Below are positions 9,505-64,000 of a stretch of DNA of 64,000 bases, piece by piece. The notes under the pieces are model-generated. The model searched no databases and was not told the origin of the DNA. It saw only the letters and a program-made list of their open reading frames with translations. The stretch is from contig NC_086097.1 in assembly GCF_963921235.1 (NCBI RefSeq), positions 107,572,001 to 107,636,000 of the forward strand, read 5' to 3'. Numbering within the stretch: the first letter of the stretch is position 1; each line of letters begins with the position of its first letter. The translations under genes were made by a program, and so were the position numbers. Origin of the DNA: Mobula hypostoma (taxonomy: Eukaryota).

Positions 9505-9616
9505 GGGATCTGAGAATCCCCCATTCCCTTAAACTTTATCAAAAGCTATTGGCTGGAGGGTAAATGGCAGGGGATTCTTCCCTTCAGGAATGAGAGAACA
9601 AATATATGGATCCTAA

Positions 9617-10920: not shown

Positions 10921-10944
10921 AACATCAGGCCAGTACTGGACCTC

Positions 10945-15344: not shown

Positions 15345-16215
<871 letters not shown>

Positions 16216-19370: not shown

Positions 19371-19424
19371 GTGGCATCCATGACTGAATTTAGAGTATTG
19401 GGGTCAGAACTCTTCACGATCTAT

Positions 19425-20243: not shown

Positions 20244-21935
20244 TTCTCCCCTGCACACAGGTAAGCGTCCTCGATTACTCGCTCACTGCAAAAGTACTTT
20301 TAACCACTTTAACTGCTTCTCTGGATAGAACTGAACTTAGACTAGCCAGTATCTGTGACACTGCTGCAGGACTCATGGAGGCCACATCTCAGACTGACCT
20401 TGGTCTGTAATGTGAGTTAGAGTGCTGTCCAGCATTTACTCTTTTACTCCTGCTGGGTGCTGCAACAGGAAGACATCTGACCCTGTACCAACATCTGACC
20501 CTGTATCAACTGTCACAGGCACAATGGTCTCAGTTCCAGAAGTTTTGCTGTCACGGCTAGGGTCGAGATTATGTTCTGACACAACTTCTCCCAACATCAC
20601 ACCATCCTCTGAATCCTCAGAACCTGATTCATATCCAGGGGAGGGCCAGCCTGAATTACAGGAGTTTGCAGTCTTCTTTGAGGAGCTGGGCTTGGAATGT
20701 TCTCACGAGGCCTTATGTCTACCCTGTTCACCCTCTTGCTAGGCCCTCCCTCCAAAGGTATGTAGGTATCCATGTATGTGCTGTCTAGTCTAGTACCCCT
20801 ACCACTGTGTAGACAGTTGCTTTCCAAGCATCCTGGATATTATTACGACCTAATGGTCTGTTCCAGAGGTAAACTAGTGCATTTACATCAATCTGTGGAC
20901 AATGAATTTTATCCTTCTGTCAGGCAATATGTTCTGCAGCCTTCTGTTCAGAGCATTCTTTTGCTCTGGCATTAGCATCCCTCAGTCGTTTCTGATGTAT
21001 GGCTAACCCATCATATCTCCTGTCCACAGACTGTTCCTGCCCCAGCAGAGCATCGACAGGCAAGTGGGGGATCAACACTAAACAGCAGGTAATAAGGGGA
21101 CTATCTGGTGGTTGTGTGAGGCATCACATTATACCCATACACTAACTCGGGTAGATGCTCTGGCCACCTGCGTTTCTTTTCTGGAGGCAACGTATGCAAC
21201 AAATCATGCATCATCCTGTTGAAACGCTCACACTGAGTATTGCCAGTAGGATGATGGGGGATAGTACGACTTTTCTTTAGCCAGTACAGTTTGCAAAGCT
21301 CAGTTATGACCTCACTTTCGAAGTTACTAGTCCTGGTCAGAATGCAAACTCTTAGGAACACCAGTAAATTCATAAACCATTCCCTTTAGAGCACCTTTGC
21401 TGTGGTATCTGCCTTTTGATCCTGAGTTGGGAATGCTTGGATGAATTTTGTAAAAACATCCGTGACTACGAAGACATTCTCACGCCCGTCAGCTGCTGGC
21501 TCAAGCACAGTGAAATCTACAGCGACAACTTCGAGTGGCCTAGAAGCACGGAATAATTTCATGGGGGAACAAATCTTAGGGTGTGGCATTTTAGTTAACA
21601 CACAACATGGACAACCTTTGATCCACCAAGCCACATCCTCATGCATGCCTACCCAAAAACATCTACTTTTCAACAAGTGCAAAGTATACTCTATGTCTTG
21701 ATGACCCATAGAGTCATGAATATATGCTAACACTTTACTCCTCAAGTTGGCAGGTAGCAGAAGCTGATAACAATCCCCGTCCTCAACTACATGATACAGT
21801 AACCGCTTTCGCACCCTGATCCTGTCCCAGTGCTTTAACAGAGACAAAACAGGTTTAGGCAGAATGTTACATTCCGTTCCATTCAGCTTGTAATTTTTCA
21901 GTAGCATCCATAATGGTAACTTCAGGACCTTGTAT
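20244..21935 (-). mobile_element. Gypsy/Ty3 internal fragment: degraded integrase and pol C-terminus
   Basis: HHCC zinc finger (HDSMGHQ...FWVGM...CPCC), [30 protein letters not shown] and [13 protein letters not shown] in ORFs 21386-21907 and 21101-21373. Confidence 0.9.
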
Positions 21936-22603
21936 TCAAATATTTATTTCATTCAAATGGTTAAAAATATCTACCAAGTAAGCCAACTCATGGATACAAT
22001 CCTTTTTTTCAAACTGTTCCAAGAGTGGGGTTTCTTTTTCTTTCAGAAAAAGTGAAATTTCTGTTGTTAGTTTGAACGAGTGCTTCAGACTTGTCCTCTT
22101 TAAAGCCAGCCAACTTCTGTGTGATGAAAAACACTTCATATTCTGCACCCATTTTTTGACTAAATCTTTCGCAATGCAATTATTCAGAGACTGGCTTTTC
22201 ATAAAGTTGATGAACTTATGGTTGTGGACAAAACCTCTTTCAAGGTTGTTGGAAGAGTCTTTGTTGCCAGTGCAAGTCTGTATAAAACAACAACGAGAGC
22301 TTCCTTTTTCATTAAAGTAGCAAAACCGGAAGTTATCAAGCATCACAGGAGCTCCATCTGAGCAAAGAATATGATGTTTTTCTTTCCTGTCAAAGTTTTG
22401 TTTGACAAAAGCAGCTTTTTTTTTTACCATTTCCAAAACACTGACAGCCTTTGCAGTTTCCAAAAGGGACTCACAAAATAAGAATTCTTCTTTGATGGCA
22501 TCAGCCTGCATATAACAAACATAAACCAGGAGCTGACTGTATTGAGAGAGATATCTGTAGTTTCATCCAGTTCCATATGGAACAGGTATTGCAAGGCTGC
22601 TAA
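21936..22603 (-). pseudogene. hAT (Charlie/Buster-type) transposase internal fragment
   Basis: LDETTDIS (first catalytic Asp), IKEEFLFC, CSDGAPVM, an SWL/RWL-like motif and LAYLVDIFNHLNEIN. No TIRs are visible. Confidence 0.88.
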
Positions 22604-22882
22604 TGTCATAAGGGCGGTGGCTGGGAACGGACCCAAGTGCAAGATACAGACACTGAAGTACTAGGGACAGGACTAGGATACAGGGCAAAGGCAAGGACAT
22701 GGACAGGAAAACCAGGAACCTGGAACAGGACTGAACAAGAGATCTAGGAGCCTGGGCTTGGACTCCGAGCCAGAGACTGGACAAGGACCCAGTACCTGGG
22801 TCTTGCCTCTGGCTCGGACCCCAGAACTAGGCAAGGACGAGGCTTGGCAGGCAGGCAGGACGAGGCAGAAATTTACAGGATT
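22604..22882 (-). mobile_element. Probable end (U5 side) of a Gypsy-type LTR inserted in the hAT transposase
   Basis: The transposase reading stops at TGTCA (22604). The minus strand ends ...GCACTTGGGTCC...ATGACA, resembling fish Gypsy LTR termini from memory. The sequence grades directly into the satellite. Confidence 0.6.
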
Positions 22883-25800
22883 GAAGCTTGAGGCTGGAGG
22901 CCGGAGACTTGAGGCGAGGCTGGAGACCGGAGACTGGAGGCGAGGCTGGAGGCCGGAGACTGGAGGCGAGGCCGGAGGCGAGTCTGGAGGCCGGAGACTG
23001 GAGGCGAGGCTGGAGGCCGGAAGCCGGAGACTTGAGGCGAGGCCGGAGGCCGGAGACCTGAGGCAAGAGGCCAGAGGCCAGAGGCCGGAGACCTGAGGCC
23101 GGAGACCAGAGGCGAGGCCGGAGGCCGGAGACTTGAGGCGAAGCCGGAGACCTGAGGCCGGAGACCGGAGGCCGGAGACCTGAGGCCGAAGGCCTGAGAC
23201 CTGAGACCTGAGACCGGAGGCCGGTGACCTGAGGCCAGAGACTTGAGGCCAGAGACCGGAGGCCAGAGGCCAGAAACTGGAGACCTGAGGCCAGAGGCTG
23301 GAGACCTGAGGCCAGAGACTGGAGACCTGAGGCCAGAGGCCAGAGGCTGGAGACCTGAGGCCGGAGGCTGGAAACCTGAGGCCAGAAGCCGGAAACTTGA
23401 GGCCGGAGACCTGAGGCACGGCTGGAGACCTGAGGCGAGGCCGGAGACCCGAGGCCAGAAGCTGGAGGCCGGAGGCCAGAGACCTGAGGCCAGAGACTGG
23501 AGGCCAGAGGCCAGAGGCTGGAAACCTGAGGCCAGAGGCTGGAGACCTGAGGCCAGAGGCCAGAGGCTGGAGACCTGAGGCCAGAGGCTGGAAACCTGAG
23601 GCCAGAGGCCAGAGGCCGGAAACCTGAGGCCGGAAACCTGAGGCACGGCTGGAGACCTGAGGCGAGGCCGGGTCTCCGAGGCCAGAAGCTGGAGGCCGGA
23701 GGCTGGAGACCTGAGGCCGGAGACTTGAGGCAAGGACAGAGGCCTGAGGCCTGAGGCCAGGCCCGAGGCCGGAGACCTGAGGCAAGGCCCGTGGCTGGAG
23801 ACCTGAGGCGAGGCCCGAGGCCGGAGAGCTGAGACCAGGCCAGAGACCCGAGGCGATGCCAGAGGCCGGAGACCGGAGGCGATGCCAGAGGCCGGAGACC
23901 CGAGGTGAGGCCAGAGGCCGGAGGCCGGAGACCTGAGGCGATGCCAGAGGCCGGAGACCTGAGGCCAGAAGCTGGAGGCTGGAGTCCGGAGACCAGAGGC
24001 CGGAGACTTGAGGCAAGGCCAGAGGCCGGAGACCTGAGGCCAGGCCCGAGGCCGGAGACCTGAGGCGAGGCCCGAGGTCGGGGACTGAGGCCAGAGACCT
24101 GAGGCCAGAGGTCGGAGATCCGAGGCGATGCCAGAGGTCGGAGACCCGAGGCGATGCCAGAAGCCGGAGACCCGAGGCGAGGCCAGAGGCCGGAGACCTG
24201 AGGACGGAGACCTGAGGCAAGGCCGGAGACCTGAGGGCAGAAGCTGGAGGCCGGAGGCCGGAGACCTGAGGCTGGAGACTTGAGGCAAGGCCAGAGGCCG
24301 GAGACCTGAGGCCAGGCCAGAGACCTGAGGACAGAGGCCGGAGACCCGAGGCGAGGGCAGAGGCCGGAGACCTGAGGCCGGAGACCTGAGGCGAAGCCGG
24401 AGGCCGGAGACCTGAGGCGATGCCAGAGGACGGAGACCTGAGGCCAGAGGCCAGAGGCCTGAGACCTGAGGCCGGAGACCTGAGGCGATGCCAGAGGCCG
24501 GAGACCTGAGGCCGGAGACCTGAGGACAGAGATCTGAGGACGGAGACCTGAGGTGAGGCCGGAGACCTGAGGCCAGAGACTTGAGGCGAAGTTGGAGGCT
24601 AGAGGCCAAGAGAATTGAGGCGAGGCCAGAGACCTGAGGCGAGGCCCGAGTCCGGAGACCTGAGGCCAGAGGCCAGAGGCCTGAGACCTGAGGCCGGAGA
24701 CCTGAGGACGGAGACCCGAGGCGAGGCCGGAGGCCGGAGACCTGAGGCGAGGCCGGAGACCTGAGGCGAAGCCGGAGGCCGGAGACCTGAGGCCAGAGAC
24801 CGGAGATCTGAGGCCAGAGGCCAGAGGCTGGAGACCTGAGACCTGAGGCCGGAGACCTGAGGACGGAGACCTGAGGCGAGGCCGGAGACCGGAGACATGA
24901 GGCCAGAGACTTGAGGCGAAGCTGGAGGCTGGAGGCTGGAAGCCGGAGACCTGAGGCGAGGCCGGAGACCTGAGGTGAAGCTGGAGGCCGGAGACCTGAG
25001 GCCAGGGCCAGAGGCCTGAGTCCTGAGGCCGGGGACCTGAGACCGGAGACCTGAGGCGAGGCCGGAGGCCGGAGACCTGAGGCCAGAGACTTGAGGCCAG
25101 AGACTTGAGGCGAAGTTGGAGGCTAGAGGCCAAGAGAATTGAGGCGAGGCCAGAGACCTGAGGCGAGGCCCGAGTCCGGAGACCTGAGGCCAGAGGCCTG
25201 AGACCTGAGGCCGGAGACCTGAGGACGGAGACCTGAGGCGAGGCCGGAGACCGGAGACATGAGGCCAGAGACTTGAGGCGAAGCTGGAGGCTGGAGGCTG
25301 GAAGCCGGAGACCTGAGCCGAGGCCGGAGACCTGAGGTGAAGCTGGAGGCCGGAGACCTGAGGCCAGAGGCCTGAGTCCTGAGGCCGGAGACCTGAGACC
25401 TGAGGCCAGAGGCCAGAGGCTGGAGACCTGAGACCTGAGGCCGGAGACCTGAGGACGGAGACCTGAGGCGAGGCCGGAGACCGGAGACATGAGGCCAGAG
25501 ACTTGAGGCGAAGCTGGAGGCTGGAGGCTGGAAGCCGGAGACCTGAGGCGAGGCCGGAGACCTGAGGTGAAGCTGGAGGCCGGAGACCTGAGGCCAGAGG
25601 CCAGAGGCCTGAGTCCTGAGGCCGGAGACCTGAGGCCGGAGACCTGAGGCGAGGCCGGAGGCCGGAGACCTGAGGCCAGAGACTTGAGGCCAGAGACTTG
25701 AGGCGAAGTTGGAGGCTAGAGGCCAAGAGAATTGAGGCAAGGCCGGAGACCTGAGGCGAGGCCGGAGGCCTGAGGCGAGGCCGGAGACCTGAGGCCAGAG

Positions 25801-28800
25801 ACTTCAGGCCAGAGGCCAGAGACCGGAGACCTGAGGCCAGAGACCGGAGACCTGAGGCCAGAGGCTGGAGACCTGAGGCGAGGCCAGAGACCTGAGGCGA
25901 GGATAGAGACCTGAGGCGAGGCCAGAGACCTGAGGTGAAGCTGGAGGCCTGAGGCCAGAGGCCAGAGGCTGGAGACCTGAGGCCTGAGGCCAGAGGCCGG
26001 AGACCTGAGGCCGGAGACTTGAGGCCAGGCCCGAGGCCGGAGACCTGAGGCGAGGCCAGAGGCCGGAGACCTGAGGCCAGGCCCGAGGCCGGAGACCTGA
26101 GGCGAGGCCGGAGGCCGGAGACCTGAGGCCAGAGACTTGAGGCGAGGCCGGAGGCCGGAGACCTGAGGTGAAGCCGGAGACCTGAGGCGAGGCCGGAGGC
26201 CTGAGTCGAAGCCTGAGGCCGGAGACCTGAGGACGGAGACCTGAGGCGAGGCCGGAGGCCGGAGACATGAGGCCAGAGACTTGAGGCCAGAGACTTGAGG
26301 CGAAGCTGGAGGCTGGAGGCTGGAAGCCGGAGACCTGAGGCGAGGCCGGAGACCTGAGGCCAGAGGCCAGAGGCCTGAGACCTGAGGCCGGAGACCTGAG
26401 GCCAGAGACTTGAGGCCAGAGACTTGAGGCGAATTTGGAGGCTAGAGGCCAAGAGAATTGAGGCGAGGCCGGAGACCTGAGGCGAGGCCGGAGGCCTGAG
26501 GCGAGGCCGGAGACCTGAGGCCAGAGACTTCAGGCCAGAGGCCAGAGACCGGAGACCTGAGGCCAGAGACCGGAGACCTGAGGCCAGAGGCTGGAGACCT
26601 GAGGCCAGAGGCCAGAGACCGGAGATCTGAGGCCAGAGGCCAGAGGCTGGAGACCTGAGGCCTGAGGCCGGAGGCCGGAGACCTGAGGCCGGAGACTTGA
26701 GGCCAGGCCCGAGGCCGGAGACTTGAGGCAAGGCCAGAGGCCGGAGACCTGAGGCCAGGCCCGAGGCCGGAGACCTGAGGCGAGGCCCGAGGCTGGGGAC
26801 TGAGGCCGGAGACCTGAGGCGAAGCTGGAGGCTGGAGGCTGGAGACTTGAGGCGAGGCCGGAGGCCGGAGACCTGAGGTGAAGCCGGAGACCTGAGGCGA
26901 AGCCGGAGACCTGAGGCGAGGCCGGAGACCTGAGGCCAGAGGCCAGAGGCCGGAGACCTGAGGCCAGAGGCCGGAGACCTGAGGCCAGAGGCCGGAGACC
27001 TGAGGCGAGGCCGGAGACCTGAGGCGAGGCCCTAGAGACCTGAGGCGAGGCCGGAGACCTGAGGCGAGAGGCTGGAGGCTGGAGACTTGAGGCGAGGCCG
27101 GAGGCCGGAGACCTGAGGTGAAGCCGGAGACCTGAGGCGAAGCCGGAGGCCGGAGACCTGAGGCGATGCCAGAGGCCGGAGACCTGAGGCCAGAGGCCAG
27201 AGGCCTGAGACCTGAGGCCGGAGACCTGAGGCGAGGCCGGAGACTTGAGACCTGAGGCCGGAGACCTGAGGACAGAGATCTGAGGACGGAGACCTGAGGT
27301 GAGGCCGGAGACCTGAGGCCAGAGACTTGAGGCGAAGCTGGAGGCTAGAGGCCAAGAGAATTGAGGCGAGGCCGGAGACCTGAGGCGAGGCCCGAGTCCG
27401 GAGACCTGAGGCCAGAGGCCAGAGGCCTGAGACCTGAGGCCGGAGACCTGAGGACGGAGACCTGAGGCGAGGCCGGAGGCCGGAGACTTGAGGCCAGAGA
27501 CTTGAGGCGAAGCTGGAGGCTGGAGGCTGGAAGCCGGAGACCTGAGGCGAGGCCGGAGACCTGAGGCGAAGCCGGAGGCCGGAGACCTGAGGACGGAGAC
27601 CTGAGGCGAGGCCGGAGACCGGAGACATGAGGCCAGAGACTTGAGGCGAAGCTGGAGGCTGGAGGCTGGAAGCCGGAGGCCTGAGTCCTGAGGCCGGAGA
27701 CCTGAGGCCGGAGACCTGAGGCGAGGCCGGAGGCCGGAGACCTGAGGCCAGAGACTTGAGGCCAGAGACTTGAGGCGAAGTTGGAGGCTAGAGGCCAAGA
27801 GAATTGAGGCGAGGCCGGAGACCTGAGGCGAGGCCGGAGGCCTGAGGCGAGGCCGGAGGCCTGAGGCGAGGCCGGAGACCTGAGGCCAGAGACTTCAGGC
27901 CAGAGGCCAGAGACCGGAGACCTGAGGCCAGAGACCGGAGACCTGAGGCCAGAGGCTGGAGACCTGAGGCCAGAGACCAGAGGCCAGAGACTTGAGGCGA
28001 AGCTGGAGGCCGGAGGCCGGAGACTTGAGGCCAGAGACTTGAGGCGAAGCTGGCGGCTAGAGGCCGAGAGAATTGAGGCGAGGCCGGAGACCTGAGGCGA
28101 GGCCGGAGGCCAGAGACCTGATGCCAGAGGTGGGAGACCTGACGCCAGAGGCCGGAGACTTGAGGCGAGGCCGGAGACCTGAGGCGAGGCCGGTGGCTGG
28201 AGGCCGGATATTTGAGGTGAGGCCGGAGACCTGTGGCGAGACCCGAGGTTGGAGACCTGAGGCAAGGCCGGAGACCTGAGGTGAGGCCAGAGACCTGAGG
28301 CCACAGACCTGAGGCCGGAGACCTGAGGCCAGAGACTTGAGGCGAAGCTGGAGGCCGGAGGCCGGAGACTTGAAGCAAGGCCGGAGGCCAGAGACCTGAG
28401 GCGAGGCCGGAGACTTGAGGTGAAGCTGGAGGCTGGAGGCCAGAGACTTGAGGCAAGGCCGGATGCCGGTGACCTGAGGCCAGAGGCCAGAGACCTGAGG
28501 CTTGGCCGGAGGCCAGAGACCTGAGGCGAGGCCCGAGGCCGGAGACCTGAAGCGAGGCCGGAGACTTGAGGCGAGGCTGGTGGCTGGAGGCCAGAGACTT
28601 GAGGCGAAGCTGGAGGCCGGAGGCCGGAGACTTGAGGCTGGAGACTTGAGGCGAAGCTGGCGGCTGGAGGCCGGAGACTTGAGGCAAGGCCGGAGGCCAG
28701 AGACCTGAGGCGAGTCCGGAGACTTGAGGCTTGGCCGGAGGCCAGAGACCTGAGGCGAGGCCCGAGGCCGGTGACCTGAGTCGAGGCCGGAGGCCGGAGA

Positions 28801-31800
28801 CCTCAGGCGAGGCCAGAGACCTGAAGCCAGAGACTTGAGGACAGAGACTTGAGGCTGGAGACTTGAGGCCGGAGACCAGAGGCGTGGCCAGAGGCCGGAG
28901 ACCTGATGCCAGAGACTTGAGGCATGGCTGGAGGCTGGAGGCCGGAGAATTGAGGCGAGGCCGGAGACCTGAGGCGAGGCCGGAGGCCTGAGGCGAGGCC
29001 GGAGGCCTGAGGCCAGAGACCTGTGGCGAGACCCGAGGTTGGAGACCTGAGGCGAGGCCGGAGGCTGGAGGCCGGAGTCCTGAGGTGAGACCAGAGACCT
29101 GAGGCCAGAGACTTGAGGCCAGAGACCTGAGGCCGGAGACTTGAGGCGAAGCAGGAGGCCGGAGGCCGGAGACTTGAGGCGAAGCTGGAGACCTGAGGCC
29201 TGAGGCGAAGCTGGAGGCTGGAGACCTGAGGTTAAAGACTTGAGGCCAGAGACCTGAGGACAGAGAATTGAGGCGAAACTGGAGACCGGAGACTGGAGAC
29301 CTGAGGCCAGAGGTCAGAGACCAGATTCCAGAGGCCGGAGACCTGAGGCCTGAGGCCAGAGGCCGGAGACCTGAGGCGATGCCAGAGGCCAGAGGCCGGA
29401 GACCTGAGGCGAGGCCAGGCCGGAGACCTGAGGCCAGAGGCCAGAGACCTGAGGCGAGGCCAGAGACCTGAGACCAGAAGCTGGAGGCCGGAGGCCGGAG
29501 ACTTGAGGCAAGGCCGTAGACCTGAGGACAGAGGCCGGAGACCCGAGGCGATGCCAGAGGCTGGAGACCCGAGGCGATGCCAGAGGCCGGAGACCCGAGG
29601 CGAGGCCAGACGCCGGAGATCTGAGGCGAGGCCAGAGACCTGAGGCGAGGCCGGAGACCTGAGGCGAGGCCAGAGACCTGAGGCCAGAAGCTGGAGGCCG
29701 GAGACCTGAGGCCAGAGGCTAGAGGCTGGAGACTTGAGGCCAGAGGCTGGAAACCTGAGGCCAGAGGCCGGAGGCCAGAGACTTGAGGCCGGAGACCTGA
29801 GGCGAGGCCGGAGACCTTAGGTGAGGCCGGAGACCCGAGGCCAGAAGCTGGAGGCCGGAGGCCGGAAACCTGAGACCAGAGACTTGAAGCAAGGCCGGAG
29901 GCCGGAGACCTGAGGCGAGGCCCGAGTCCGGAGACCTGAGGCCAGAGGCCAGAGGCCTGAGACCTGAGGCCGGAGACCTGAGGACGGAGACCCGAGGCGA
30001 GGCCAGACGCCGGAGATCTGAGGCGAGGCCAGAGACCTGAGGCGAGGATAGAGACCTGAGGCGAGGCCAGAGACCTGAGGCCAGAAGCTGGAGGCCGGAG
30101 ACCTGAGGCCAGGCCCGAGGCCGGAGACCTGAGGCCAGAGGCTAGAGGCTGGAGACTTGAGGCCAGAGGCTGGAAACCTGAGGCCAGAGGCCGGAGACCT
30201 GAGGCGAGGCCGGAGACCTTAGGTGAGGCCGGAGACCCGAGGCCAGAAGCTGGAGGCCGGAGGCCGGAAACCTGAGACCAGAGACTTGAAGCAAGGCCGG
30301 AGGCCGGAGACCTGAGGCGAGGCCCGAGTCCGGAGACCTGAGGCCAGAGGCCAGAGGACGGAGACCTGAGGCGAGGCCGGAGGCCGGAGACATGAGGCGA
30401 GGCCAGAGACCTGAGGCGAGGCCAGAGACCTGAGACCAGAAGCTGGAGGCCGGAGGCCGGAGACCTGAGGCCGGAGACTTGAGGCAAGGCCGTAGACCTG
30501 AGGACAGAGGCCGGAGACCCGAGGCGATGCCAGAGGCTGGAGACCCGAGGCGATGCCAGAGGCCGGAGACCCGAGGCGAGCCCAGACGCCGGAGATCTGA
30601 GGCGAGGCCAGAGACCTGAGGCGAGGATAGAGACCTGAGGCGAGGCCAGAGACCTGAGGCCAGAAGCTGGAGGCCGGAGACCTGAGGCCAGAGGCTAGAG
30701 GCTGGAGACTTGAGGCCAGAGGCTGGAAACCTGAGGCCAGAGGCCGGAGGCCAGAGACTTGAGGCCGGAGACCTGAGGCGAGGCCGGAGACCTTAGGTGA
30801 GGCCGGAGACCCGAGGCCAGAAGCTGGAGGCCGGAGGCCGGAAACCTGAGACCAGAGACTTGAAGCAAGGCCGGAGGCCGGAGACCTGAGGCGAGGCCCG
30901 AGTCCAGAGACCTGAGGCCAGAGGCCAGAGGCCTGAGACCTGAGGCCGGAGACCTGAGGACAGAGACCTGAGGCGAGGCCGGAGGCCGGAGACATGAGGC
31001 CAGAGACTTGAGGCCAGAGACTTGAGGCGAAGCTGGAGGCTGGAGGCTGGAAGCCGGAGGCCTGAGTCCTGATGCCGGAGACCTGAGGCCGGAGACCTGA
31101 GGCGAGGCCGGAGGCCGGAGACCTGAGGCCAGAGACTTGAGGCCAGAGACTTGAGGCGAAGCTGGAGACCGGAGACTGGAGACGTGAGGCCAGAGGCCGG
31201 AGGCCAGATTCCAGAGGCTGGAGACCTGAGGCCAGAGGCCGGAGACCTGAGGCCAGAGGCCAGAGACCTGAGGCCTGAGGCCAGAGGCCGGAGACCTGAG
31301 GCGATGCCAGAGTCCGGAGACCCGAGGCCAGAGGCCAGAGGCCGGAGACCTGAGGCCGGAGACCTGAGGCCAGAGGCCAGAGGCCGGAGACCTGAGGCCA
31401 GAGGCCAGAGGCCGGAGACCTGAGGCGAGGCCAGAGGCCGGAGACCTGAGGCGAGGCCAGAGGCCGGAGACCTGAGGCCGGAGACCTGAGGCCAGAGGCC
31501 GGAGGCTGGAGACTTGAGGCCAGAGGCCGGAAGCCAGATTCCAGAGGCTGGAGACCTGAGGCCTGAGGCCGGAGACCTGAGGCGATGCCAGAGGCCAGAG
31601 GCCGGAGACCTGAGGTTAGAGACTTGAGGCCAGAGACTTGAGGCCAGAGACTTGAGGCGAAGCTGGAGACCGGAGACTGGAGACCTGAGGCCAGAGGCCA
31701 GAGGTCAGATTCCAGAGGCCGGAGACCTGAGTCCAGAGGCTGGAGACCTGAGGCCTGAGGCCAGAGACCTGAGGCCAGAGACCTGAGGCCTGAGGCCAGA

Positions 31801-34800
31801 GGCAGGAGACCTGAGGCGATGCCAGAGGCCAGAGGCCGGAGACCTGAGGCTGGAGACCTGAGGCGAGGCCAGAGGCCGGAGACCTGAGGCCAGAGGCCGG
31901 AGACCCGAGTGATGCCAGAGGCCGGAGACCCGAGGCGATGCCAGAGTTTGGAGACCCGAGGCGAGGCCAGAGGCCGGAGACCTGATGCCGGAGACCTGAA
32001 GCCAGAGGCCGGAGGCTGGAGACCTGAGGCCAGAGGCCAGAGGCCGGAGACTTGAGGCGAGGCTGGTGGCCGGAGGCCGGAGACTTGAGGCGAGGCCGGT
32101 GGCCGGAGGCCGGAGACCTGAGACTTGAGGCGAGGCCAGAGACCTGAGGCCTGAGGCGAAGCTCAAGGCTGGAGGCCGGAGACCTGAGGTTAGAGATTTG
32201 AGGCCAGAGACTTGAGGCGAAGCTGGAGACCGGAGACTGGAGACCTGAGGCCAGAGGCCGGAGGCCAGATTCCAGAGGCTGGAGACCTGAGGCCAGAGGC
32301 CGGAGACCTGAGGCCTGAGGCCGGAGACCTCAGGCGATGCCAGAGGCCAGAGGCCGGAGACCTGAGGCGAGGCCAGAGGCCGGAGACCTGAGGCCAGAGG
32401 CCGGAGACCTGAGGCCAGAGGCCGGAGACCCGAGCGATGCCAGAGGCCGGAGACCTGAGGCGATGCCAGAGTCCGGAGACCCGAGGCGAGGCCAGAGGCC
32501 GGAGACCTGAGGCCGGAGACCTGAAGCCAGAGGCCGGAGGCTGGAGACCTGAGGCCAGAGACCAGAGGCCGGAGACTTGAGGCGAGGCTGGTGGCCAGAG
32601 GCCGGAGAGTTGAGGCGAGGCCGGAGACCTGAGACTTGAGGCAATGCCGGAGACCTGAGGCCTGAGGCAAAGCTCGAGGCTGGAGGCTGGAGACCTGAGG
32701 TTAGAGACTTGAGGCCAGAGACTTGAGGCGAAGCTGGAGACCGGAGACTGGAGACCTGAGGCCAGAGGCCGGAAGCCAGATTCCAGAGGCTGGAGACCTG
32801 AGGCCAGAGGCCGGAGACCTGAGGCCTGAGGCCGGAGACCTCAGGCGATGCCAGAGGCCAGAGGCTGGAGACCTGAGCTTAGTGACTTGAGGTCAGAGAC
32901 TTGAGGCCAGAGACTTGAGCCGAAGCTGGAGACCGGAGACTGGAGACCTGAGGCCAGAGGCCAGAGGTCAGATTCCAGAGGCCGGAGACCTGAGTCCAGA
33001 GGCTGGAGACCTGAGGCCTGAGGCCAGAGGCCAGAGACCTGAGGCCTGAGGCCAGAGGCCGGAGACCTGAGGCGATGCCAGAGGCCAGAGGCCGGAGACC
33101 TGAGGCTGGAGACCTGAGGCGAGGCCAGAGGCCGGAGACCTGAGGCCAGAGGCCGGAGACCCGAGCGATGCCAGAGGCCGGAGATCTGAGGCGAGGCCAG
33201 ATTTCGGAGACCCGAGGCGAGGCCAGAGGCCGGAGACCTGAGGCCGGAGACCTGACGCCAGAGGCCGGAGGCTGGAGACCTGAGGCCAGAGGCCAGAGGC
33301 CGGAGACTTGAGGCGAGGCTGGTGGCCGGAGGCCGGAGACTTGAGGCGAGGCCGGTGGCCGGAGGCCGGAGACCTGAGACTTGAGGCGAGGCCAGAGACC
33401 TGAGGCCTGAGGCGAAGCTCAAGGCTGGAGGCCGGAGACCTGAGGTTAGAGACTTGAGGCCAGAGACTTGAGGCGAAGCTGGAGACCGGAGACTGGAGAC
33501 CTGAGGCCAGAGACCGGAGACCTGAGGCCTGAGGTCGGAGACCTCAGGCGATGCCAGAGGCTAGAGGCCGGAGACCTGAGGCGAGGCCAGAGGCCGGAGA
33601 CCTGAGGCCAGAGGCAGGAGTCCTGATGCCAGAGGCCGGAGACCCGAGCGATGTCAGAGGCCGGAGACCCGAGGCGATGCCAGAGTCCGGAGACCCGAGA
33701 CGAGGCCAGAGGCCTGAGACCTGAGGCCAGAGGCCCGAGACCCGAGGCAATGCCATAGGCCGGAGACCCGAGGTGATGCCAGAGGCCGGAGACCCGAGGC
33801 GAGGCCAGAGGCCGGAGACCTGAGGCCGGAGACCTGAGGCCAGAGGCCAGCGGCTGGAGACCTGGGGCCAGAGACCTGAGACCTGAGGCAAAGCTGGAGG
33901 CTGGAGGCCGGAGACTTGAGGCGAGGCTGGTGGCCGGAGGCCGGAGACTTGAGGCGAGGCCTGTGGCCAGAGGCAGGAGACTTGAGGCGAAGCTGGAGAC
34001 CGGAGACTGGAAACCTGAGGCCAGAGGCCAGAATACAGAGGCTGGAGACCTGAGACAAGAGGCTGGATACCTGAGGCCAGAGGCAAGAGGCTGGAGACCT
34101 GAGACAAGAGGCTGGATACCTGAGGCCAGAGGCAAGAGGCTGGAGACCTGAGGCCAGAGACTGGAGACCTGAGGCCAGAGGCTGGAGACCTGAGACCAGA
34201 GGCCAGAGGCAGGAGGCCAGAGGCCGGAGACCTGAGACCTGAGGCAGGGCCGGAGACCTGAGGCGATGCCAGAGGCCGGAGGCCGGAGGCCGGAGACCTG
34301 AGGCCCAAGGCCAGAAGCTGGAGGCCGGTGGACGGAGACCTGAGGCCGGAAACCTGAGGTGAGGCCCGATGCCAGAGGCCAGAGGCCGGTGGCCAGAGGC
34401 CGGAGACCTGAGACTTGAGGCGAGGCCAGAGACCTGAGGCCTGAGGCGAAGCTCAAGGCTAGAGGCCGGAGACCTGAGGTTAGAGACTTGAGGCCAGAGA
34501 CTTGAGGCGAAGCTGGAGACCGGAGACTGGAGACCTGAGGCAAGAGGCCAGAGGCCGGAGACTTGAGGCGAGGCTGGTGGCCGGAAGCCGGAGACTTGAG
34601 GCGAGGCCGGTGGCCGGAGGCCGGAGACCTGAGACTTGAGGCGAGGCCAGAGACCTGAGGCCTGAGGCGAAGCTCAAGGCTGGAGGCCGGAGACCTGAGG
34701 TTAGAGACTTGAGGCCAGAGACTTGAGGCGAAGCTGGAGACCGGAGACTGGAGACCTGAGGCCAGAGGCCGGAGGCCAGATTCCAGAGGCTGGAGACCTG

Positions 34801-37800
34801 AGGCCAGAGACCGGAGACCTGAAGCCTGAGGCCGGAGACCTCAGGCGATGCCAGAGTCCAGAGGCCGGAGACCTGAGGCGAGGCCAGAGACCGGAGACCT
34901 GAGGCCTTAGGCCGGAGACTTCAGGTGATGCCAGAGGCCAGAGGCCGGAGACCTGAGGCCGGAGACCTGAGGCGAGGCCAGAGGCCGGAGACCCGAGCGA
35001 TGCCAGAGGCCGGAGACCTGAGGCGATGCCAGAGTCCAGAGACCAGAGGCGAGGCCAGAGGCCGGAGACCTGATGCCGGAAACCTGAAGCCAGAAGCCGG
35101 AGGCTGGAGACCTGAGGCCAGAGGCCAGAGGCTGGAGACTTGAGGCGAGGCTGGTGGCCGGAGGCCGGAGACTTGAGGCGAGGCCGGAGACCTGAGACTT
35201 GAGGCGATGCCGGAGACCTGAGGCCTGAGGCGAACCTCGAGGCTGGAGGCTGGAGACCTGAGGTTAGAGACTTGAGGCCAGAGACTTGAGGCCAGAGACT
35301 TGAGCCGAAGCTGGAGACCGGAGACTGGAGACCTGAGGCCAGAGGCCAGAGGTCAGATTCCAGAGGCCGGAGACCTGAGTCCAGAGGCTGGGGACCTGAG
35401 GCCAGAGGCCAGAGACCTGAGGCCTGAGGCCAGAGGCAGGAGACCTGAGGTGATGCCAGAGGCCAGAGGCCGGAGACCTGAGGCTGGAGACCTGAGGCGA
35501 GGCCAGAGGCCGGAGACCCGAGCGATGCCAGAGGCCGGAGACCCGAGGCGATGCCAGAGTTCGGAGACCCGAGGCGAGGCCAGAGGCCGGAGACCTGATG
35601 CCGGAGACCTGAAGCCAGAGGCCGGAGGCTGGAGACCTGAGGCCAGAGGCCGGAAGCCAGATTCCAGAGGCTAGAGACCTGAGGCCTGAGGCCGGAGACC
35701 TCAGGCGATGCCAGAGGCCAGAGGCCGAAGACCTGAGGTTAGAGACTTGAGGCCAGAGACTTGAGGCCAGAGACTTGAGCCGAAGCTGGAGACCGGAGAC
35801 TGGAGACCTGAGGCCAGAGGCCAGAGGTCAGATTCCAGAGGCCGGAGACCTGAGTCCAGAGGCTGGAGACCTGAGGTTAGAGACTTGAGGCCAGAGACTT
35901 GAGCCGAAGCTGGAGACCGGAGACTGGAGACCTGAGGCCAGAGGCCAGAGGTCAGATTCCAGAGGCCGGAGACCTGAGTCCAGAGGCCGGAGACCCGAGT
36001 GATGCCAGAGGCCGGAGACCCGAGGCGATGCCAGAGTTCGGAGACCCGAGGCGAGGCCAGAGGCCGGAGACCTGATGCCGGAGACCTGAAGCCAGAGGCC
36101 GGAGGCTGGAGACCTGAGGCCAGAGGCCAGAGGCCGGAGACTTGAGGCGAGGCTGGTGGCCGGAGGCCGGAGACTTGAGGCGAGGCCGGTGGCCAGAGGC
36201 CGGAGACCTGAGACTTGAGGCGAGGCCAGAGACCTGAGGCCTGAGGCGAAGCTCAAGGCTGGAGGCCGGAGACCTGAGGTTAGAGACTTGAGGCCAGAGA
36301 CTTGAGGCGAAGCTGGAGACCGGAGACTGGAGACCTGAGGCCAGAGGCCGGAGGCCAGATTCCAGAGGCTGGAGACCTGAGGCCAGAGACCGGAGACCTG
36401 AGGCCTGAGGCCGGAGACCTCAGGCGATGCCAGAGTCCAGAGGCCGGAGACCTGAGGCGAGGCCAGAGGCCGGAGACCTGAGGCCAGAGGCCGGAGACCT
36501 GAGGCCAGAGGCCGGAGACCCGAGCGATGCCAGAGGCCGGAGACCTGAGGCGATGCCAGAGTCCGGAGACCCGAGGCGAGGCCAGAGGCCGGAGACCTGA
36601 TGCCGGAGACCTGAAGCCAGAGGCCGGACGCTGGAGACCTGAGGCCAGAGGCCAGAGGCCGGAGACTTGAGGCGAGGCTGGTGGCCGGAGGCCGGAGAGT
36701 TGAGGCGATGCCGGAGACCTGAGGCCTGAGGCGAAGCTCGAGGCTGGAGGCTGGAGGCTGGAGACCTGAGGTTAGAGACTTGAGGCCAGAGACTTGAGGC
36801 GAAGCTGGAGACCGGAGACTGGAGACCTGAGGCCAGAGGCCGGAAGCCAGATTCCAGAGGCTGGAGACCTGAGGCCAGAGGCCGGAGACCTGAGGCCTGA
36901 GGCCGGAGACCTCAGGCGATGCCAGAGGCCGGAGACCTGAGGTTAGAGACTTGAGGTCAGAGACTTGAGGCCAGAGACTTGAGCCGAAGCTGGAGACCGG
37001 AGACTGGAGACCTGAGGCCAGAGGCCAGAGGTCAGATTCCAGAGGCCGGAGACCTGAGTCCAGAGGCTGGAGACCTGAGGCCTGAGGCCAGAGGCCAGAG
37101 ACCTGAGGCCTGAGGCCAGAGGCAGGAGACCTGAGGCGATGCCAGAGGCCAGAGGCCGGAGACCTGAGGCTGGAGACCTGAGGCGAGGCCAGAGGCCGGA
37201 GACCTGAGGCCAGAGGCCGGAGACCCGAGCGATGCCAGAGGCCGGAGACCCGAGGCGATGCCAGATTTCGGAGACCCGAGGCGAGGCCAGAGGCCGGAGA
37301 CCTGATGCCGGAGACCTGAAGCCAGAGGCCGGAGGTTGGAGACCTGAGGCCAGAGGCCAGAGGCCGGAGACTTGAGGCGAGGCTGGTGGCCGGAGGCCGG
37401 AGACTTGAGGCGAGGCCGGTGGCCGGAGGCCGGAGACCTGAGACTTGAGGCGAGGCCAGAGACCTGAGGCCTGAGGCGAAGCTCAAGGCTGGAGGCCGGA
37501 GACCTGAGGTTAGAGACTTGAGGCCAGAGACTTGAGGCGAAGCTGGAGACCGGAGACTGGAGACCTGAGGCCAGAGACCGGAGACCTGAGGCCTGAGGCC
37601 GGAGACCTCAGGCGATGCCAGAGGCCAGAGGCCGGAGACCTGAGGCGAGGCCAGAGGCCGGAGACCTGAGGCCAGAGGCAGGAGTCCTGATACCAGAGGC
37701 CGGAGACCCGAGCGATGTCAGAGGCCGGAGACCCGAGGCGATGCCAGAGTCCGGAGACCCGAGGCGAGGCCAGAGGCCTGAGACCTGAGGCCATAGGCCG

Positions 37801-40800
37801 GAGACCCGAGGCAATGCCATAGGCCGGAGACCCGAGGTGATGCCAGAGTCTGGAGACCCGAGGCGAGGCCAGAGGCCGGAGACCTGAGGCCGGAGACCTG
37901 AGGCCAGAGGCCAGCGGCTGGAGACCTGGGGCCAGAGACCTGAGACCTGAGGCAAAGCTGGAGGCTGGAGGCCGGAGACTTGAGGCGAGGCTGGTGGCCA
38001 GAGGCCGGAGACTTGAGGCGAAGCTGGAGACCGGAGACTGGAAACCTGAGGCCGGAGACCTGAGGCCAGAGGCCGGAGACCCGAGCGATGCCAGAGGCCG
38101 GAGACCTGAGGCGATGCCAGAGTCCGGAGACCCGAGGCGAGGCCAGAGGCCGGAGACCTGATGCCGGAGACCTGAAGCCAGAGGCCGGACGCTGGAGACC
38201 TGAGGCCAGAGGCCAGAGGCCGGAGACTTGAGGCGAGGCTGGTGGCCGGAGGCCGGAGAGTTGAGGCGATGCCGGAGACCTGAGGCCTGAGGCGAAGCTC
38301 GAGGCTGGAGGCTGGAGGCTGGAGACCTGAGGTTAGAGACTTGAGGCCAGAGACTTGAGGCGAAGCTGGAGACCGGAGACTGGAGACCTGAGGCCAGAGG
38401 CCGGAAGCCAGATTCCAGAGGCTGGAGACCTGAGGCCAGAGGCCGGAGACCTGAGGCCTGAGGCCGGAGACCTCAGGCGATGCCAGAGGCCAGAGGCCGG
38501 AGACCTGAGGTTAGAGACTTGAGGCCAGAGACTTGAGGCCAGAGACTTGAGCCGAAGCTGGAGACCGGAGACTGGAGACCTGAGGCCAGAGGCCAGAGGT
38601 CAGATTCCAGAGGCCGGAGACCTGAGTCCAGAGGCTGGAGACCTGAGGCCTGAGGCCAGAGGCCAGAGACCTGAGGCCTGAGGCCAGAGGCAGGAGACCT
38701 GAGGCGATGCCAGAGGCCAGAGGCCGGAGACCTGAGGCTGGAGACCTGAGGCGAGGCCAGAGGCCGGAGACCTGAGGCCAGAGGCCGGAGACCCGAGCGA
38801 TGCCAGAGGCCGGAGACCCGAGGCGATGCCAGATTTCGGAGACCCGAGGCGAGGCCAGAGGCCGGAGACCTGATGCCGGAGACCTGAAGCCAGAGGCCGG
38901 AGGCTGGAGACCTGAGGCCAGAGGCCAGAGGCCGGAGACTTGAGGCGAGGCTGGTGGCCAGAGGCCGGAGACTTGAGGCGAGGTCGGTGGCCGGAGGCCG
39001 GAGACCTGAGACTTGAGGCGAGGCCAGAGACCTGAGGCCTGAGGCGAAGCTCAAGGCTGGAGGCCGGAGACCTGAGGTTAGAGACTTGAGGCCAGAGACT
39101 TGAGGCGAAGCTGGAGACCGGAGACTGGAGACCTGAGGCCAGAGACCGGAGACCTGAGGCCTGAGGCCGGAGACCTGAGGTGATGCCAGAGGCCAGAGGC
39201 CGGAGACCTGAGGCCGGAGACCTGAGGCGAGGCCAGAGGCCGGAGACCTGAGGCCAGAGGCAGGAGTCCTGATACCAGAGGCCGGAGACCCGAGCGATGT
39301 CAGAGGCCGGAGACCCGAGGCGATGCCAGAGTCTGGAGACCCGAGGCGAAGCCAGAGGCCTGAGACCTGAGGCCATAGGCCGGAGACCCGAGGCAATGCC
39401 ATAGGCCGGAGACCCGAGGTGATGCCAGAGTCTGGAGACCCGAGGCGAGGCCAGAGGCCGGAGACCTGAGGCCGGAGACCTGAGGCCAGAGGCCAGCGGC
39501 TGGAGACCTGGGGCCAGAGACCTGAGACCTGAGGCAAAGCTGGAGGCTGGAGGCCGGAGACTTGAGGCGAGGCTGGTGGCCAGAGGCCGGAGACTTGAGG
39601 CGAAGCTGGAGCAGGAGACTGGAAACCTGAGGCCGGAGACCTGAGGCCAGAGGCCGGAGACCCGAGCGATGCCAGAGGCCGGAGACCTGAGGCGATGCCA
39701 GAGTCCGGAGACCCGAGGCGAGGCCAGAGGCCGGAGACCTGATGCCGGAGACCTGAAGCCAGAGGCCGGACGCTGGAGACCTGAGGCCAGAGGCCAGAGG
39801 CCGGAGACTTGAGGCGAGGCTGGTGGCCGGAGGCCGGAGAGTTGAGGCGATGCCGGAGACCTGAGGCCTGAGGCGAAGCTCGAGGCTGGAGGCTGGAGGC
39901 TGGAGACCTGAGGTTAGAGACTTGAGGCCAGAGACTTGAGGCGAAGCTGGAGACCGGAGACTGGAGACCTGAGGCCAGAGGCCGGAAGCCAGATTCCAGA
40001 GGCTGGAGACCTGAGGCCAGAGGCCGGAGACCTGAGGCCTGAGGCCGGAGACCTCAGGCGATGCCAGAGGCCAGAGGCCGGAGACCTGAGGTTAGAGACT
40101 TGAGGTCAGAGACTTGAGGCCAGAGACTTGAGCCGAAGCTGGAGACCGGAGACTGGAGACCTGAGGCCAGAGGCCAGAGGTCAGATTCCAGAGGCCGGAG
40201 ACCTGAGTCCAGAGGCTGGAGACCTGAGGCCTGAGGCCAGAGGCCAGAGACCTGAGGCCTGAGGCCAGAGGCAGGAGACCATAGGCGATGCCAGAGGCCA
40301 GAGGCCGGAGACCTGAGGCTGGAGACCTGAGGCGAGGCCAGAGGCCGGAGACCTGAGGCCAGAGGCCGGAGACCCGAGCGATGCCAGAGGCCGGAGACCC
40401 GAGGCGATGCCAGATTTCGGAGACCCGAGGCGAGGCCAGAGGCCGGAGACCTGATGCCGGAGACCTGAAGCCAGAGGCCGGAGGTTGGAGACCTGAGGCC
40501 AGAGGCCAGAGGCCGGAGACTTGAGGCGAGGCTGGTGGCCAGAGGCCGGAGACTTGAGGCGAGGCCGGTGGCCGGAGGCCGGAGACCTGAGACTTGAGGC
40601 GAGGCCAGAGACCTGAGGCCTGAGGCGAAGCTCAAGGCTGGAGGCCGGAGACCTGAGGTTAGAGACTTGAGGCCAGAGACTTGAGGCGAAGCTGGAGACC
40701 GGAGACTGGAGACCTGAGGCCAGAGACCGGAGACCTGAGGCCTGAGGCCGGAGACCTCAGGCGATGCCAGAGGCCAGAGGCCGGAGACCTGAGGCCGGAG

Positions 40801-61800: not shown

Positions 61801-64000
61801 GAGGCCAGAGGCCGGAGACCTGAGGCGAGGCCGGAGACTTGAGGCGAAGCTGGAGGCCGGAGACTTGAGGCAAGGCCAGAGGCTGGAGACCTGAGGCCAG
61901 GCCCGAGGCTGGAGACCTGAGGCCAGGCCCGAGGCCGGTGAACTGAGGCCGGGGACCTGAGACCAGGCCTGAGGCCGGAGACCTGAGGCCGGAGACCTGA
62001 GACCAGGCCGGAGACCCGAGAACAGGCCGGAGACCCGAGGCGATGCCAGAGGCCGGAGTCCCGAGGCGAGGCCACAGGCCGGAGACCCGAGGCGAGGCCA
62101 GAGGCCGGAGACCTGACGCCGGAAACCTGAGGCGAGGCCGGAGGCCGGAGACCTGAGGCGATGCCGGAGGCCGGAGACCTGAGGCGATGCTAGAGACCGG
62201 AGACCTGAGGCCAGTGGCCTGAGACCTGAGGCAGGTGACCTGAGGCGATGCCGGAGACTGGAGACTTGAGGCGACGCCGGAGGCCAGAGACCTGAGGCAA
62301 GGCCGGAGGCCGGAGACTTGAGGCGAGGCCAGTGGCCGGAGGCCGGAGGCCGGAGACTTGAGGCGAGGCCGGAGACATGAGGCCTGAGGCCAGAGACTTG
62401 ATCCCAGAGACCTGAGGCCAGAGGCCAGAGGCTGGAAACCTGAGGCCAGAGACTTGAGGCCGGAGACCCAAGGCCAGAAGCTGGAGGCCGGAGACCTGAT
62501 GCCAGAGCCCGGAGACCTGAGGCCGGTGTCCTGAGGCGAGGCCAGAGGCCAGAGACCTGAGGCGAGGCCGGAAGCCAGAGACCTGAGGCGAGGCCGGAGA
62601 CTTGAGGCGAAGCTGGAGGCTGGAGGCCGGAAGCCAGAGACCTGAGGCGAGGCCGGAGACTTGAGGCGAAGCTGGAGGCTGGAGGCCGGAGACTTGAGGC
62701 CAGGCCAGAGGCCGGAGACCTGAGGCCAGGCCCGAAGCCGGAGACCTGAGGCCAGGCCCGAGGCCGGAGACCTGAGGCCAGGCCTGAGGCCGGAGACCTG
62801 AGACCAGGCCGGAAACCCGAGGCGATGCCAGAGGCCGGAGACCCGAGGCCGGAAGCCAGAGACCTGAGGCGAGGCCGGAGACTTGAGGCGAAGCTGGAGG
62901 CCGGAGGCCGGAGACTTGAGGCCAGGCCAGAGGCCGGAGACCTGAGGCCAGGCCCGAGGCCGGAGACCTGAGGCCAGGCCCGAGGCTGGAGACCTGAGGC
63001 CAGGCCCGAGGCCGGGGACCTGAGACCAGGCCTGAGGCCGGAGACCTGAGGCCGGAGACCTGAGACCAGGCCGGAGACCCGAGAACAGGCCGGAGACCCG
63101 AGGCGATGCCAGAGGCCGGAGTCCCGAGGCGAGGCCACAGGCCGGAGACCCGAGGCGAGGCCAGAGGCCGGAGACCTGACGCCGGAAACCTGAGGCGAGG
63201 CCGGAGGCCGGAGACCCGAGGCGAGGTCCGAGGCCGGAGACCTGAGGCTAGAGACCGGAGACTGGAGACCTGAGGCCAGAGGCCGCAGACCTGATGCCAA
63301 AGGCCAGAGGTTGCAGACCTGAGGCCCGAGGCTGGAGACCGGAGACCAGAGGCCAGAGGCCAGAGGCTGGAGACTTGAGGCGACGCTGGAGGCCGGAGGC
63401 CGGAGACCTGAGGCCAGGTCCGAGGCTGGAGACCTGAGGCCAGGCCCGAGGCCGGTGACCTGAGGCCGGAGACCTGAGGCCAGGCCTGAGGCCGGAGTCC
63501 TGAGGCCAGGCCTGAGGACGGAGTCCTGAGGCCAGGCCTGAGGACAGAGACCTGAGACCAGGCCGGAGACCCGAGGCGATGCCAGAGGCCGGAGACCCGA
63601 GGCGAGGCCAGAGGCCGGAGACCTGAGACCGGAGACCTGAGGCGAGGGCGGAGACGTGAGGCGAGGCCGGAGGCCGGAGACCTGAGGCGATGCCGGAGGC
63701 CGGAGGCCGGAGACTTGAGGCGACGCCGGAGGCCAGAGACCAGAGACCTGAGGTGAGGCCGGAGGCCGGAGACCTGGGGCGATGCCAGAGGCCAGAGGCG
63801 GGAGACCTGAGGCGAGGCCGGAGGCCGGAGACCTGAGGCCAGAGGCCGGAGACCCGAGGCGAGGTCTGAGGCCGGAGACCCGAGGCGAGGTCCGAGGCCG
63901 GACACTGGAGACTTGAGGCCAGAGGCCGGAGACCTGATGCCAGAGGCCAGAGGTTGCAGACCTGAGACCAGAGACTGGAGACCTGAGACCAGAGGCCGGA
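22883..64000. repeat. Complex GC-rich satellite of at least 41 kb, made of 7-bp (GAGGCCG/GAGGCCA/GAGGCTG/GAGACCT/GAGACTT) and 5-bp (GAGGC) units with higher-order repeats
   Basis: Directly visible tandem structure in a single orientation, with a purine-rich plus strand and no interruption seen up to the window end. Confidence 0.98.

What the first reader, a model, noticed from the sequence alone, without database searches (positions are those of the whole stretch)
22604..23200. The giant satellite appears to be born inside a retrotransposon LTR
Seen: the hAT transposase frame is cut at 22604 by TGTCA, followed by ~280 bp of LTR-like sequence. That sequence already holds proto-units (GAGCCAGAGACTGG, GACGAGGC twice, GGCAGGCAGGCAGG) and passes without a gap into the array at 22883. 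Inference: a short tandem tract in an LTR expanded to more than 41 kb, capturing satellite genesis from a transposon. Prediction: beyond the far end of the array lie the rest of the LTR (or element) ending in CA, a 4-6 bp TSD matching the bases before 22604 (..GCTAA), and then the 5' part of the hAT transposase.
Basis: partly seen in the sequence, partly recalled or inferred. Interest (0 to 1): 0.72.

Follow-up and report, generated by a model that had tools for sequence, protein, structure and literature searches.

The report
Satellite array beside probable retrotransposon end
A block of short DNA repeats more than 41,000 bases long starts 279 bases inside what looks like the end of a retrotransposon and probably grew from a small repeat tract there, a known way for satellite DNA to arise, but the far end of the block that would prove it could not be seen.

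Summary
The junction is real. A decayed Buster-type hAT transposase stops at 22603, and a TGTCATA terminus matching the Sushi/rGmr1 LTR motif starts at 22604. After 279 bp, an array of 7- and 5-bp units runs off the window (over 41 kb, one orientation). The quoted 'proto-units' are present but do not clearly beat composition-matched shuffles (p 0.05-0.31), and the step into the array is abrupt. The 279-bp piece is itself periodic (lag 6, z 4.8). The first 27 array units form a regular 26-bp tract that lacks the commonest interior units (0 of 27 versus 2218 of 6151), as a preserved seed would. The interior holds 99.5-99.9% identical kilobase duplications. The decisive tests (far flank, TSD, other copies) could not be run, and no AATAAA or TATA was found, so even LTR identity is inferred. 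Best reading: in-place expansion of an LTR-internal tract (about 0.55), a known process (Ogre satellites, mouse Ms6-hm/Hm-2). The scan has noted three other TE-born satellites on other DNA of this genome (unchecked).

The parts
21885..22603 (-). Decayed hAT transposase fragment of the Buster/ZBED8/DUF4371 type; the host of the insertion. Its 5' part is missing beyond 22603, and its 3' part is missing below 21885, where it abuts a Gypsy pol fragment.
22599..22603 (+). Predicted left copy of the target-site duplication (CTAA or GCTAA); partner not seen
   Evidence: sequence; inference
22604..22610 (.). Integrase-type terminus TGTCATA: matches Sushi 5' motif TGTYANR at 7 of 7; read on the minus strand (TATGACA) it matches the Sushi 3' motif CNTNACA at 6 of 7
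   Evidence: motifs from PMC3601003 Table 3; chance within 3 nt of the cut about 1% (63 matches in 44801 flank positions)
22604..22882 (.). 279-bp probable LTR part: purine-rich on +, built of degenerate 6/7-bp CAGGA/CTGGA/CAAGGA-type words; no AATAAA or TATA on either strand; no other copy in the window
22745..22835 (.).
   Evidence: I8; -52.1 kcal/mol, z -5.4, 0 of 200 shuffles (region chosen after seeing it); no Rfam family
22883..23057 (+). Array edge: regular tract of about 26-bp units (7+5+7+7), lacking the commonest interior units; candidate seed tract
23058..64000 (+). Array body: about 6150 units of 7 or 5 bp (CGGAGAC, CTGAGGC, CAGAGGC, GAGGC and variants), one orientation, with kilobase-scale duplications at 98-100% identity; runs off the window

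Best explanation
A Gypsy-type (Sushi/rGmr1-like) LTR element, or a solo LTR, inserted into an already dead hAT copy at 22603/22604. Its LTR was made of degenerate 6-7-bp words and carried a short tract of 26-bp units (7+5+7+7). That tract survives at 22883-23057, anchored to unique sequence. It lengthened by slippage or unequal exchange. Point changes, many of them what methyl-CpG deamination would give (CCGGAG to CCAGAG or CTGGAG), created new 7-bp variants that were themselves amplified, and recent duplications of 0.4-2 kb inflated the block beyond 41 kb. SHOWN: hAT cut, terminus motif, periodicity of the piece, distinct edge, unit alphabet, recent duplications. INFERRED: that the piece is an LTR, that the tract was part of it, the mutational route, and the orientation (the T-rich minus strand suggests 22604 is the element's 3'/U5 end read leftwards). 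NOT SEEN: far flank, TSD, other copies. No function is implied; it is most likely neutral heterochromatic DNA.
For: Terminus TGTCATA fits TGTYANR exactly where hAT similarity ends; chance about 1% within 3 nt and 1.8% within 6 nt. Left of it lie hAT codons, not a PBS or PPT, so this is an outer end of an insertion. Piece and array share polarity: GC skew 0.20 versus 0.25, AT skew 0.39 versus 0.46; 6 of 892 flank windows are as skewed. The piece is periodic: lag 6 identity 0.403 versus 0.273 in shuffles, z 4.8 (27 lags tried); lag 19, also a period of the array edge, z 2.9; 0 of 315 flank windows reach the lag-6 excess. Edge: 0 of 27 units are CTGAGGC/CAGAGGC/CAGAGAC/CTGAGAC/CCGAGGC versus 2218 of 6151 in the rest, and no 26-unit interior window has fewer than 2; TGGAGGC 7 of 27 versus 150 of 6151, at most 4 in any interior window. 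Only 3% of 40-mers in the first kilobase recur, versus 18-97% in the other 41 bins. CGG- and CAG-heptamers number 1262 and 1263, CpG observed/expected 0.52. The process is documented for Ogre LTR elements (PMC7004042) and mouse MaLR LTRs (table rows).
Against: The piece is no more array-like than its own shuffles (k-mer p 0.048-0.31; Markov z -0.9 to 1.3). Its main period is 6 and the array's is 7. The transition is abrupt, after an AT-rich 16-mer. No AATAAA within one mismatch and no TATA on either strand. No homologue of the piece was found anywhere searched. A distinct, unhomogenised edge is expected of any array whatever its origin, and array units are not independent, so the edge p-values (about 1e-5) overstate the case. 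An apparent deletion joint 0.7 kb away (hAT to Gypsy pol at 21885) shows that unrelated pieces get fused at this locus.
Confidence: 0.55

Rival explanations
1. The satellite existed first, elsewhere. It became joined to the middle of the LTR by a deletion, or a short piece of it was copied into the LTR, and it then expanded. The LTR is a neighbour or landing site, not the source.
For: Abrupt step at 22884; no significant sequence identity between piece and array; period 6 versus 7; an apparent deletion joint nearby at 21885.
Against: A cut through the array interior should expose interior units (36% of units), but the edge has 0 of 27 and is a regular 26-bp tract. Polarity and G-doublet words are shared across the junction.
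Confidence: 0.22
2. The 279-bp piece is not an LTR but the end of another TGT-terminated element with internal tandem repeats (Ginger-like or a non-autonomous DNA transposon), or an old decayed margin of simple sequence. The array still grew in place, but not from an LTR.
For: No AATAAA or TATA; no second LTR, PBS, PPT or gag-pol attached in the window; Ginger elements share the TGTNR terminus (PMC2836005 passages); the piece is itself periodic.
Against: The target (..TGCTAA) fits neither Ginger1 (CCGG/CCGT) nor Ginger2 (RTATAY). The terminus fits the 7-nt Sushi and rGmr1 motifs. A hairpin and a T-rich strand are compatible with fish Gypsy LTRs (PMC3601003).
Confidence: 0.16
3. The join between the unique flank and the array is an assembly error.
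For: Long simple arrays are hard to assemble (general knowledge); no read was seen to span the junction.
Against: The edge tract is unique, regular and graded into the interior, which a chimeric join to interior sequence would not give.
Confidence: 0.05

Closest known systems
Mouse Ms6-hm and Hm-2 expanded simple repeats inside MaLR LTRs (Kelly 1994; seen only as table rows and references in PMC9659126 and PMC6947457)
   Same: Short G-rich unit expanded at one locus inside an LTR of a vertebrate retroelement.
   Different: Here the host is probably a Gypsy LTR, the array mixes 7- and 5-bp units with kilobase duplications and exceeds 41 kb, and origin inside the LTR is not yet shown.
Ogre-derived satellites of Lathyrus sativus and PisTR-A of pea (PMC7004042: abstract and Discussion read)
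   Same: A short tandem tract carried by an LTR retrotransposon occasionally expands into a long array.
   Different: Those tracts lie in the 3' UTR, not the LTR, and were shown in many short copies; here one locus, one flank, no other copy seen.
LTR-derived satellites Sobo, potato St repeats, maize CRM1TR/CRM4TR, Ctenomys RPCS and swamp-eel MALREP (table rows in PMC9659126)
   Same: Satellite traced to LTR sequence, including a Gypsy LTR in a fish.
   Different: In those the link rests on monomer similarity to the element; here the 5-7-bp units are too short for that test, and the link rests on position and periodicity.
SINE-derived satellites of squamates (PMC10702118, abstract read)
   Same: Vertebrate tandem arrays arising from part of a retroelement.
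   Different: [quoted passage not shown]

Membership tests
Gypsy/Metaviridae LTR (Sushi or rGmr1 type) | Terminal integrase motif (TGTYANR / TGTNANR) | tested here: met
   TGTCATA at 22604; motifs from PMC3601003 Table 3
Gypsy/Metaviridae LTR (Sushi or rGmr1 type) | Second terminus (..ACA) and 4-6-bp TSD | not testable with these tools
   Far end outside the window; no TGACA in 22883-64000; no genome held
Gypsy/Metaviridae LTR (Sushi or rGmr1 type) | AATAAA signal and TATA-like box | tested here: inconclusive
   Neither found in the 279 bp on either strand, not even AATAAA with one mismatch. Only part of the LTR is visible, but Sushi AATAAA lies near the 3' end, so this counts against the minus-strand U5 reading.
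Gypsy/Metaviridae LTR (Sushi or rGmr1 type) | Paired LTR, PBS, PPT, gag-pol | tested here: inconclusive
   None attached within the window; would lie beyond the array or be absent in a solo LTR
Gypsy/Metaviridae LTR (Sushi or rGmr1 type) | Dispersed copies in the genome | not testable with these tools
   No genome, no reads laid; pattern scans of microbial and viral collections gave 7 chance hits and 0 hits
Retrotransposon-derived satellite (Ogre / Ms6-hm type) | Long contiguous head-to-tail array | tested here: met
   At least 41.1 kb, 6178 parsed units, GAGGC 2915 versus GCCTC 0
Retrotransposon-derived satellite (Ogre / Ms6-hm type) | Unit traceable to the element's own sequence | tested here: inconclusive
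   k-mer and Markov tests not significant; periodicity and seed-like edge supportive
Retrotransposon-derived satellite (Ogre / Ms6-hm type) | Short tract of the same unit in other element copies; both halves of the element flank the array | not testable with these tools
Ginger DNA transposon | TGTNR terminus | tested here: met
   PMC2836005 passages
Ginger DNA transposon | Target CCGG/CCGT (Ginger1) or RTATAY (Ginger2) | tested here: not met
   Left target reads ..TGCTAA; old copies can decay
hAT, Buster/ZBED8/DUF4371 type (host fragment) | Transposase homology including the LDE(S/T)TD motif | tested here: met
   (Pfam scan of the fragment alone was negative)

The most novel reading that the evidence does not exclude
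This is a single-locus giant satellite caught with its seed intact: a 26-bp tract native to a Gypsy LTR, whose 7-bp alphabet was diversified by CpG deamination and which is still growing by kilobase duplications. Together with the SINE-, Penelope- and ribozyme-module-born arrays noted elsewhere in this genome (unchecked scan notes), it would show a cartilaginous-fish genome repeatedly turning pieces of unrelated transposons into arrays of tens of kilobases in place, each with an unexpanded family as its control.
Probability: 0.3. Interest if true: 0.55.

Novelty: new member of a known kind. Interest (0 to 1): 0.3.

Why it matters
If the far flank holds the rest of the LTR, the TSD and the hAT 5' part, this is a clean vertebrate case of satellite birth with both the ancestral state (other LTR copies) and the seed tract preserved. 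That would allow the order of unit mutations and the growth rate to be read directly. The process is known from plants and mice. My searches (listings only) showed no paper describing an LTR-born satellite in a shark or ray, but most subscription papers are not in the library. Until the far flank is seen it is a plausible, unproven example.

Tried and rejected
Whole-genome search: no genome held. Laying contigs on the junction: no data returned, so other copies and the empty site in related species stay unseen. Run search: 16 of 19 rows hold part of 19300-23000, 4 of them half or more of 378 words, from 4 studies; none was laid, and the best holders may be the source, so this is not used as evidence. 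Metagenome pattern scan: 7 hits, none extending beyond the pattern (best alignment 23 nt), taken as chance. Viral scan: 0 hits. Protein routes to other copies: 1 unrelated repeat protein among 1.84 billion representatives; 14 hits among 8000 candidates, of which the 3 read look like bacterial proteins with convergent heptapeptide repeats. Rfam: one match at E 0.3, below threshold. PDB sequence search of the hAT fragment: nothing below E 0.17. Whole-piece RNA fold: not special, z -0.51. The bacterial promoter scan is irrelevant to a vertebrate LTR and found nothing. Scan notes near this window or alike in sequence: nothing relevant. One megablast self-comparison printed no rows and was replaced by exact 40-mer chaining. 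Rejected: the proto-units as evidence; a coding role for the long minus-strand ORFs, which follow from the units lacking stop codons (164 TTA/CTA/TCA triplets in 41 kb); the Gypsy pol fragment at 20400-21885 as the body of this LTR (the hAT lies between them, and its own putative 3' LTR shows no similarity).

Full report
Setting. The left 22.6 kb of the window is a stack of decayed transposable elements and the right 41 kb is one tandem array. Earlier scan notes call this genome a ray (unchecked). No whole genome is held, so all sequence evidence comes from the window.

The host. The minus-strand frame at 21936-22562 matches 43 proteins at E<=0.001 among 362 candidates, named ZBED8-, ZBED5-, SCAND3-, FAM200-like or DUF4371. 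tblastn aligns residues 147-373 of the best one (P0001, 541 aa) to 22550-21885 at 53% identity, with frameshifts and a stop. So this is a dead Buster-type hAT (subfamily name recalled). The long frame ends at a stop just above 22562, but a second frame carries on: LAALQYLFHMELDETTD, in register with the LDESTD motif of the homologues and with ELAAS of P0001, up to the codon at 22603-22601. The HMM aligns only the last 14 of these residues (1.8 bits), so the exact end rests on three identities seen by eye. The hAT also lacks its 3' part: at 21885 it abuts a Gypsy pol fragment (Integrase_H2C2 E 2.3e-16, rve E 2e-4; joint printed), probably a deletion.

The terminus. 22604 begins TGTCATA. PMC3601003 (passages and part 1 of 2 of section 8 read) gives TGTYANR as the 5' motif of Sushi LTRs, TGTNANR for rGmr1, and CNTNACA as the Sushi 3' motif. 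The window matches the first two fully and, read on the minus strand, the third at 6 of 7. TGTYANR occurs 63 times in 44801 flank positions, so a match within 3 nt of the cut has about a 1% chance. Left of it are hAT codons, not a PBS or PPT, so it is an outer end. The paper says U3 of these clades is T-rich; the piece is T-rich only on the minus strand (86 of 279), which suggests the element reads leftwards and 22604 is its 3' end. This agrees with my recall of fish Gypsy LTR ends. Against it, no AATAAA (even with one mismatch) and no TATA lies on either strand. Ginger transposons also begin TGTNR, but their targets (CCGG/CCGT, RTATAY; PMC2836005 passages) do not fit ..TGCTAA. LTR is therefore likely but not shown.

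The proto-units. All quoted words are present. Tested against 2000 dinucleotide shuffles of the piece, shared frequent k-mers give p = 0.31 (k=7), 0.089 (8), 0.20 (9), 0.061 (10) and 0.048 (12); against natural flank windows, which are not composition-matched, 0 to 17 of 448 do as well. The longest exact match to the array, 13 nt, is reached by 77 of 1000 shuffles, and the longest repeated word, 10 nt, by 246 of 2000. Markov models of the array of order 3-6 give z from -0.9 to 1.3, and the score jumps to 0.91 only at 22884. The best proto-unit is one arm of a hairpin at 22745-22835 (z -5.4, 0 of 200 shuffles, region chosen after seeing it).

What does link piece and array. The piece is periodic: identity at lag 6 is 0.403 against 0.273 (z 4.8, 27 lags tried), with lags 19 and 25 at z 2.9 and 3.1; 0 of 315 flank windows reach the lag-6 excess. 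Words of the form C[ACT][AT]?GGA occur 17 times against 4.0 expected (motif chosen after looking). Both share strand skews, matched by 6 of 892 flank windows. So the array adjoins an element already built of 6-7-bp G-doublet words, though the piece's main period is 6 and the array's 7.

The array. It parses into 6178 steps: 5224 heptamers, 899 pentamers, 55 single bases, all in one orientation. The first 27 units form a regular tract of about 26 bp (identity 0.76 at lag 26). None is CTGAGGC, CAGAGGC, CAGAGAC, CTGAGAC or CCGAGGC, which make up 2218 of the other 6151; no 26-unit interior window has fewer than 2. TGGAGGC is 7 of 27 against 150 of 6151. Only 3% of 40-mers in the first kilobase recur, against 18-97% in the other 41 bins. 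The interior holds recent duplications, such as 2133 bp at 99.8% (53779 and 57039) and 1549 bp at 99.5% (38033 and 39614). CGG-, CAG- and TGG-heptamers number 1262, 1263 and 592, and CpG observed/expected is 0.52; CAG and TGG are what CpG deamination makes of CCGG (inference). This is the picture of an anchored seed and an actively growing body. The caveat: any array has a less homogenised edge, and units are not independent.

What could not be seen. The far end is outside the window: no TGACA, and the three CTAA hits are array variants. No second copy of the piece is in the window. No reads or contigs were laid. Pattern scans gave 7 chance hits in metagenomes and 0 in viral contigs, and protein routes gave only unrelated repeats.

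Mechanism and rivals. Most likely (0.55) an LTR-internal 26-bp tract expanded in place. Rivals: a pre-existing satellite fused to or copied into the LTR (0.22), a non-LTR host element (0.16), an assembly error (0.05).

Comparison with what is known. Expansion of retrotransposon-borne tracts into satellites is shown for Ogre elements (PMC7004042, abstract and Discussion). Review tables list mouse Ms6-hm and Hm-2 from MaLR LTRs, RPCS, Sobo, CRM repeats and swamp-eel MALREP from a Gypsy LTR (PMC9659126 and PMC6947457, passages; the primary papers were not read). PMC12628747 (passages) reviews the same routes, and PMC10702118 (abstract) covers SINE-born arrays in reptiles. Two elasmobranch genome preprints (passages) report abundant simple tandem repeats and 2.7-4.7% LTR content, with no mention of TE-born satellites in the passages seen; their supplements were not seen. 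Searches listed no paper on an LTR-born satellite in sharks or rays. The scan has noted three TE-born arrays on other pieces of this genome, which I did not check and do not count as support.

Verdict. Observation partly confirmed, interpretation partly supported. It works like a retrotransposon-derived satellite; membership is unproven because the two defining tests could not be run. New member of a known kind; interest 0.3.

Noticed in passing
window 15345-16215: Internally deleted hAT element with both ends: terminal repeat CAGTGGTCCCCAACC at 15345, its imperfect partner near 16202-16215, an 8-bp direct repeat GTCCATAA at 15337 and 16216, and a transposase C-terminal remnant at 15534-15890.
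   Followed up: partly
window 19385-21885, minus strand: Decayed Gypsy pol 3' part (integrase) with a purine tract near 20240 and a probable 3' LTR to its left; its 5' part is replaced by the hAT fragment at 21885, an apparent deletion joint.
   Followed up: partly
window 22745-22835: Strong hairpin inside the LTR-like piece (z -5.4); both arms match array words in opposite orientations. Could be an R-region stem-loop.
   Followed up: partly
window 3500-9400: Broken fragments that look by eye like retroviral gag, RNase H and integrase on the minus strand, interrupted by a CR1-like piece near 6780-7600; Pfam found nothing for the four ORFs scanned. Label recalled, not tested.
   Followed up: no
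window 167-1123, 1500-3450, 10900-13250: CR1/L2-type LINE pieces: an ORF1 with GDSL esterase domain (E 3.6e-15) and two reverse-transcriptase copies about 80% alike.
   Followed up: no
window 9615-10258 and 17104-17261: Penelope-like endonuclease remnant (by eye; Pfam negative) between 29-bp inverted arms, and a related pair of 55-bp inverted arms at 17104-17261.
   Followed up: no
window 22673-25715, minus strand: The array's minus strand is almost free of stop codons and gives ORFs of 641-962 aa that resemble bacterial heptapeptide-repeat proteins by convergence; a trap for gene prediction.
   Followed up: partly
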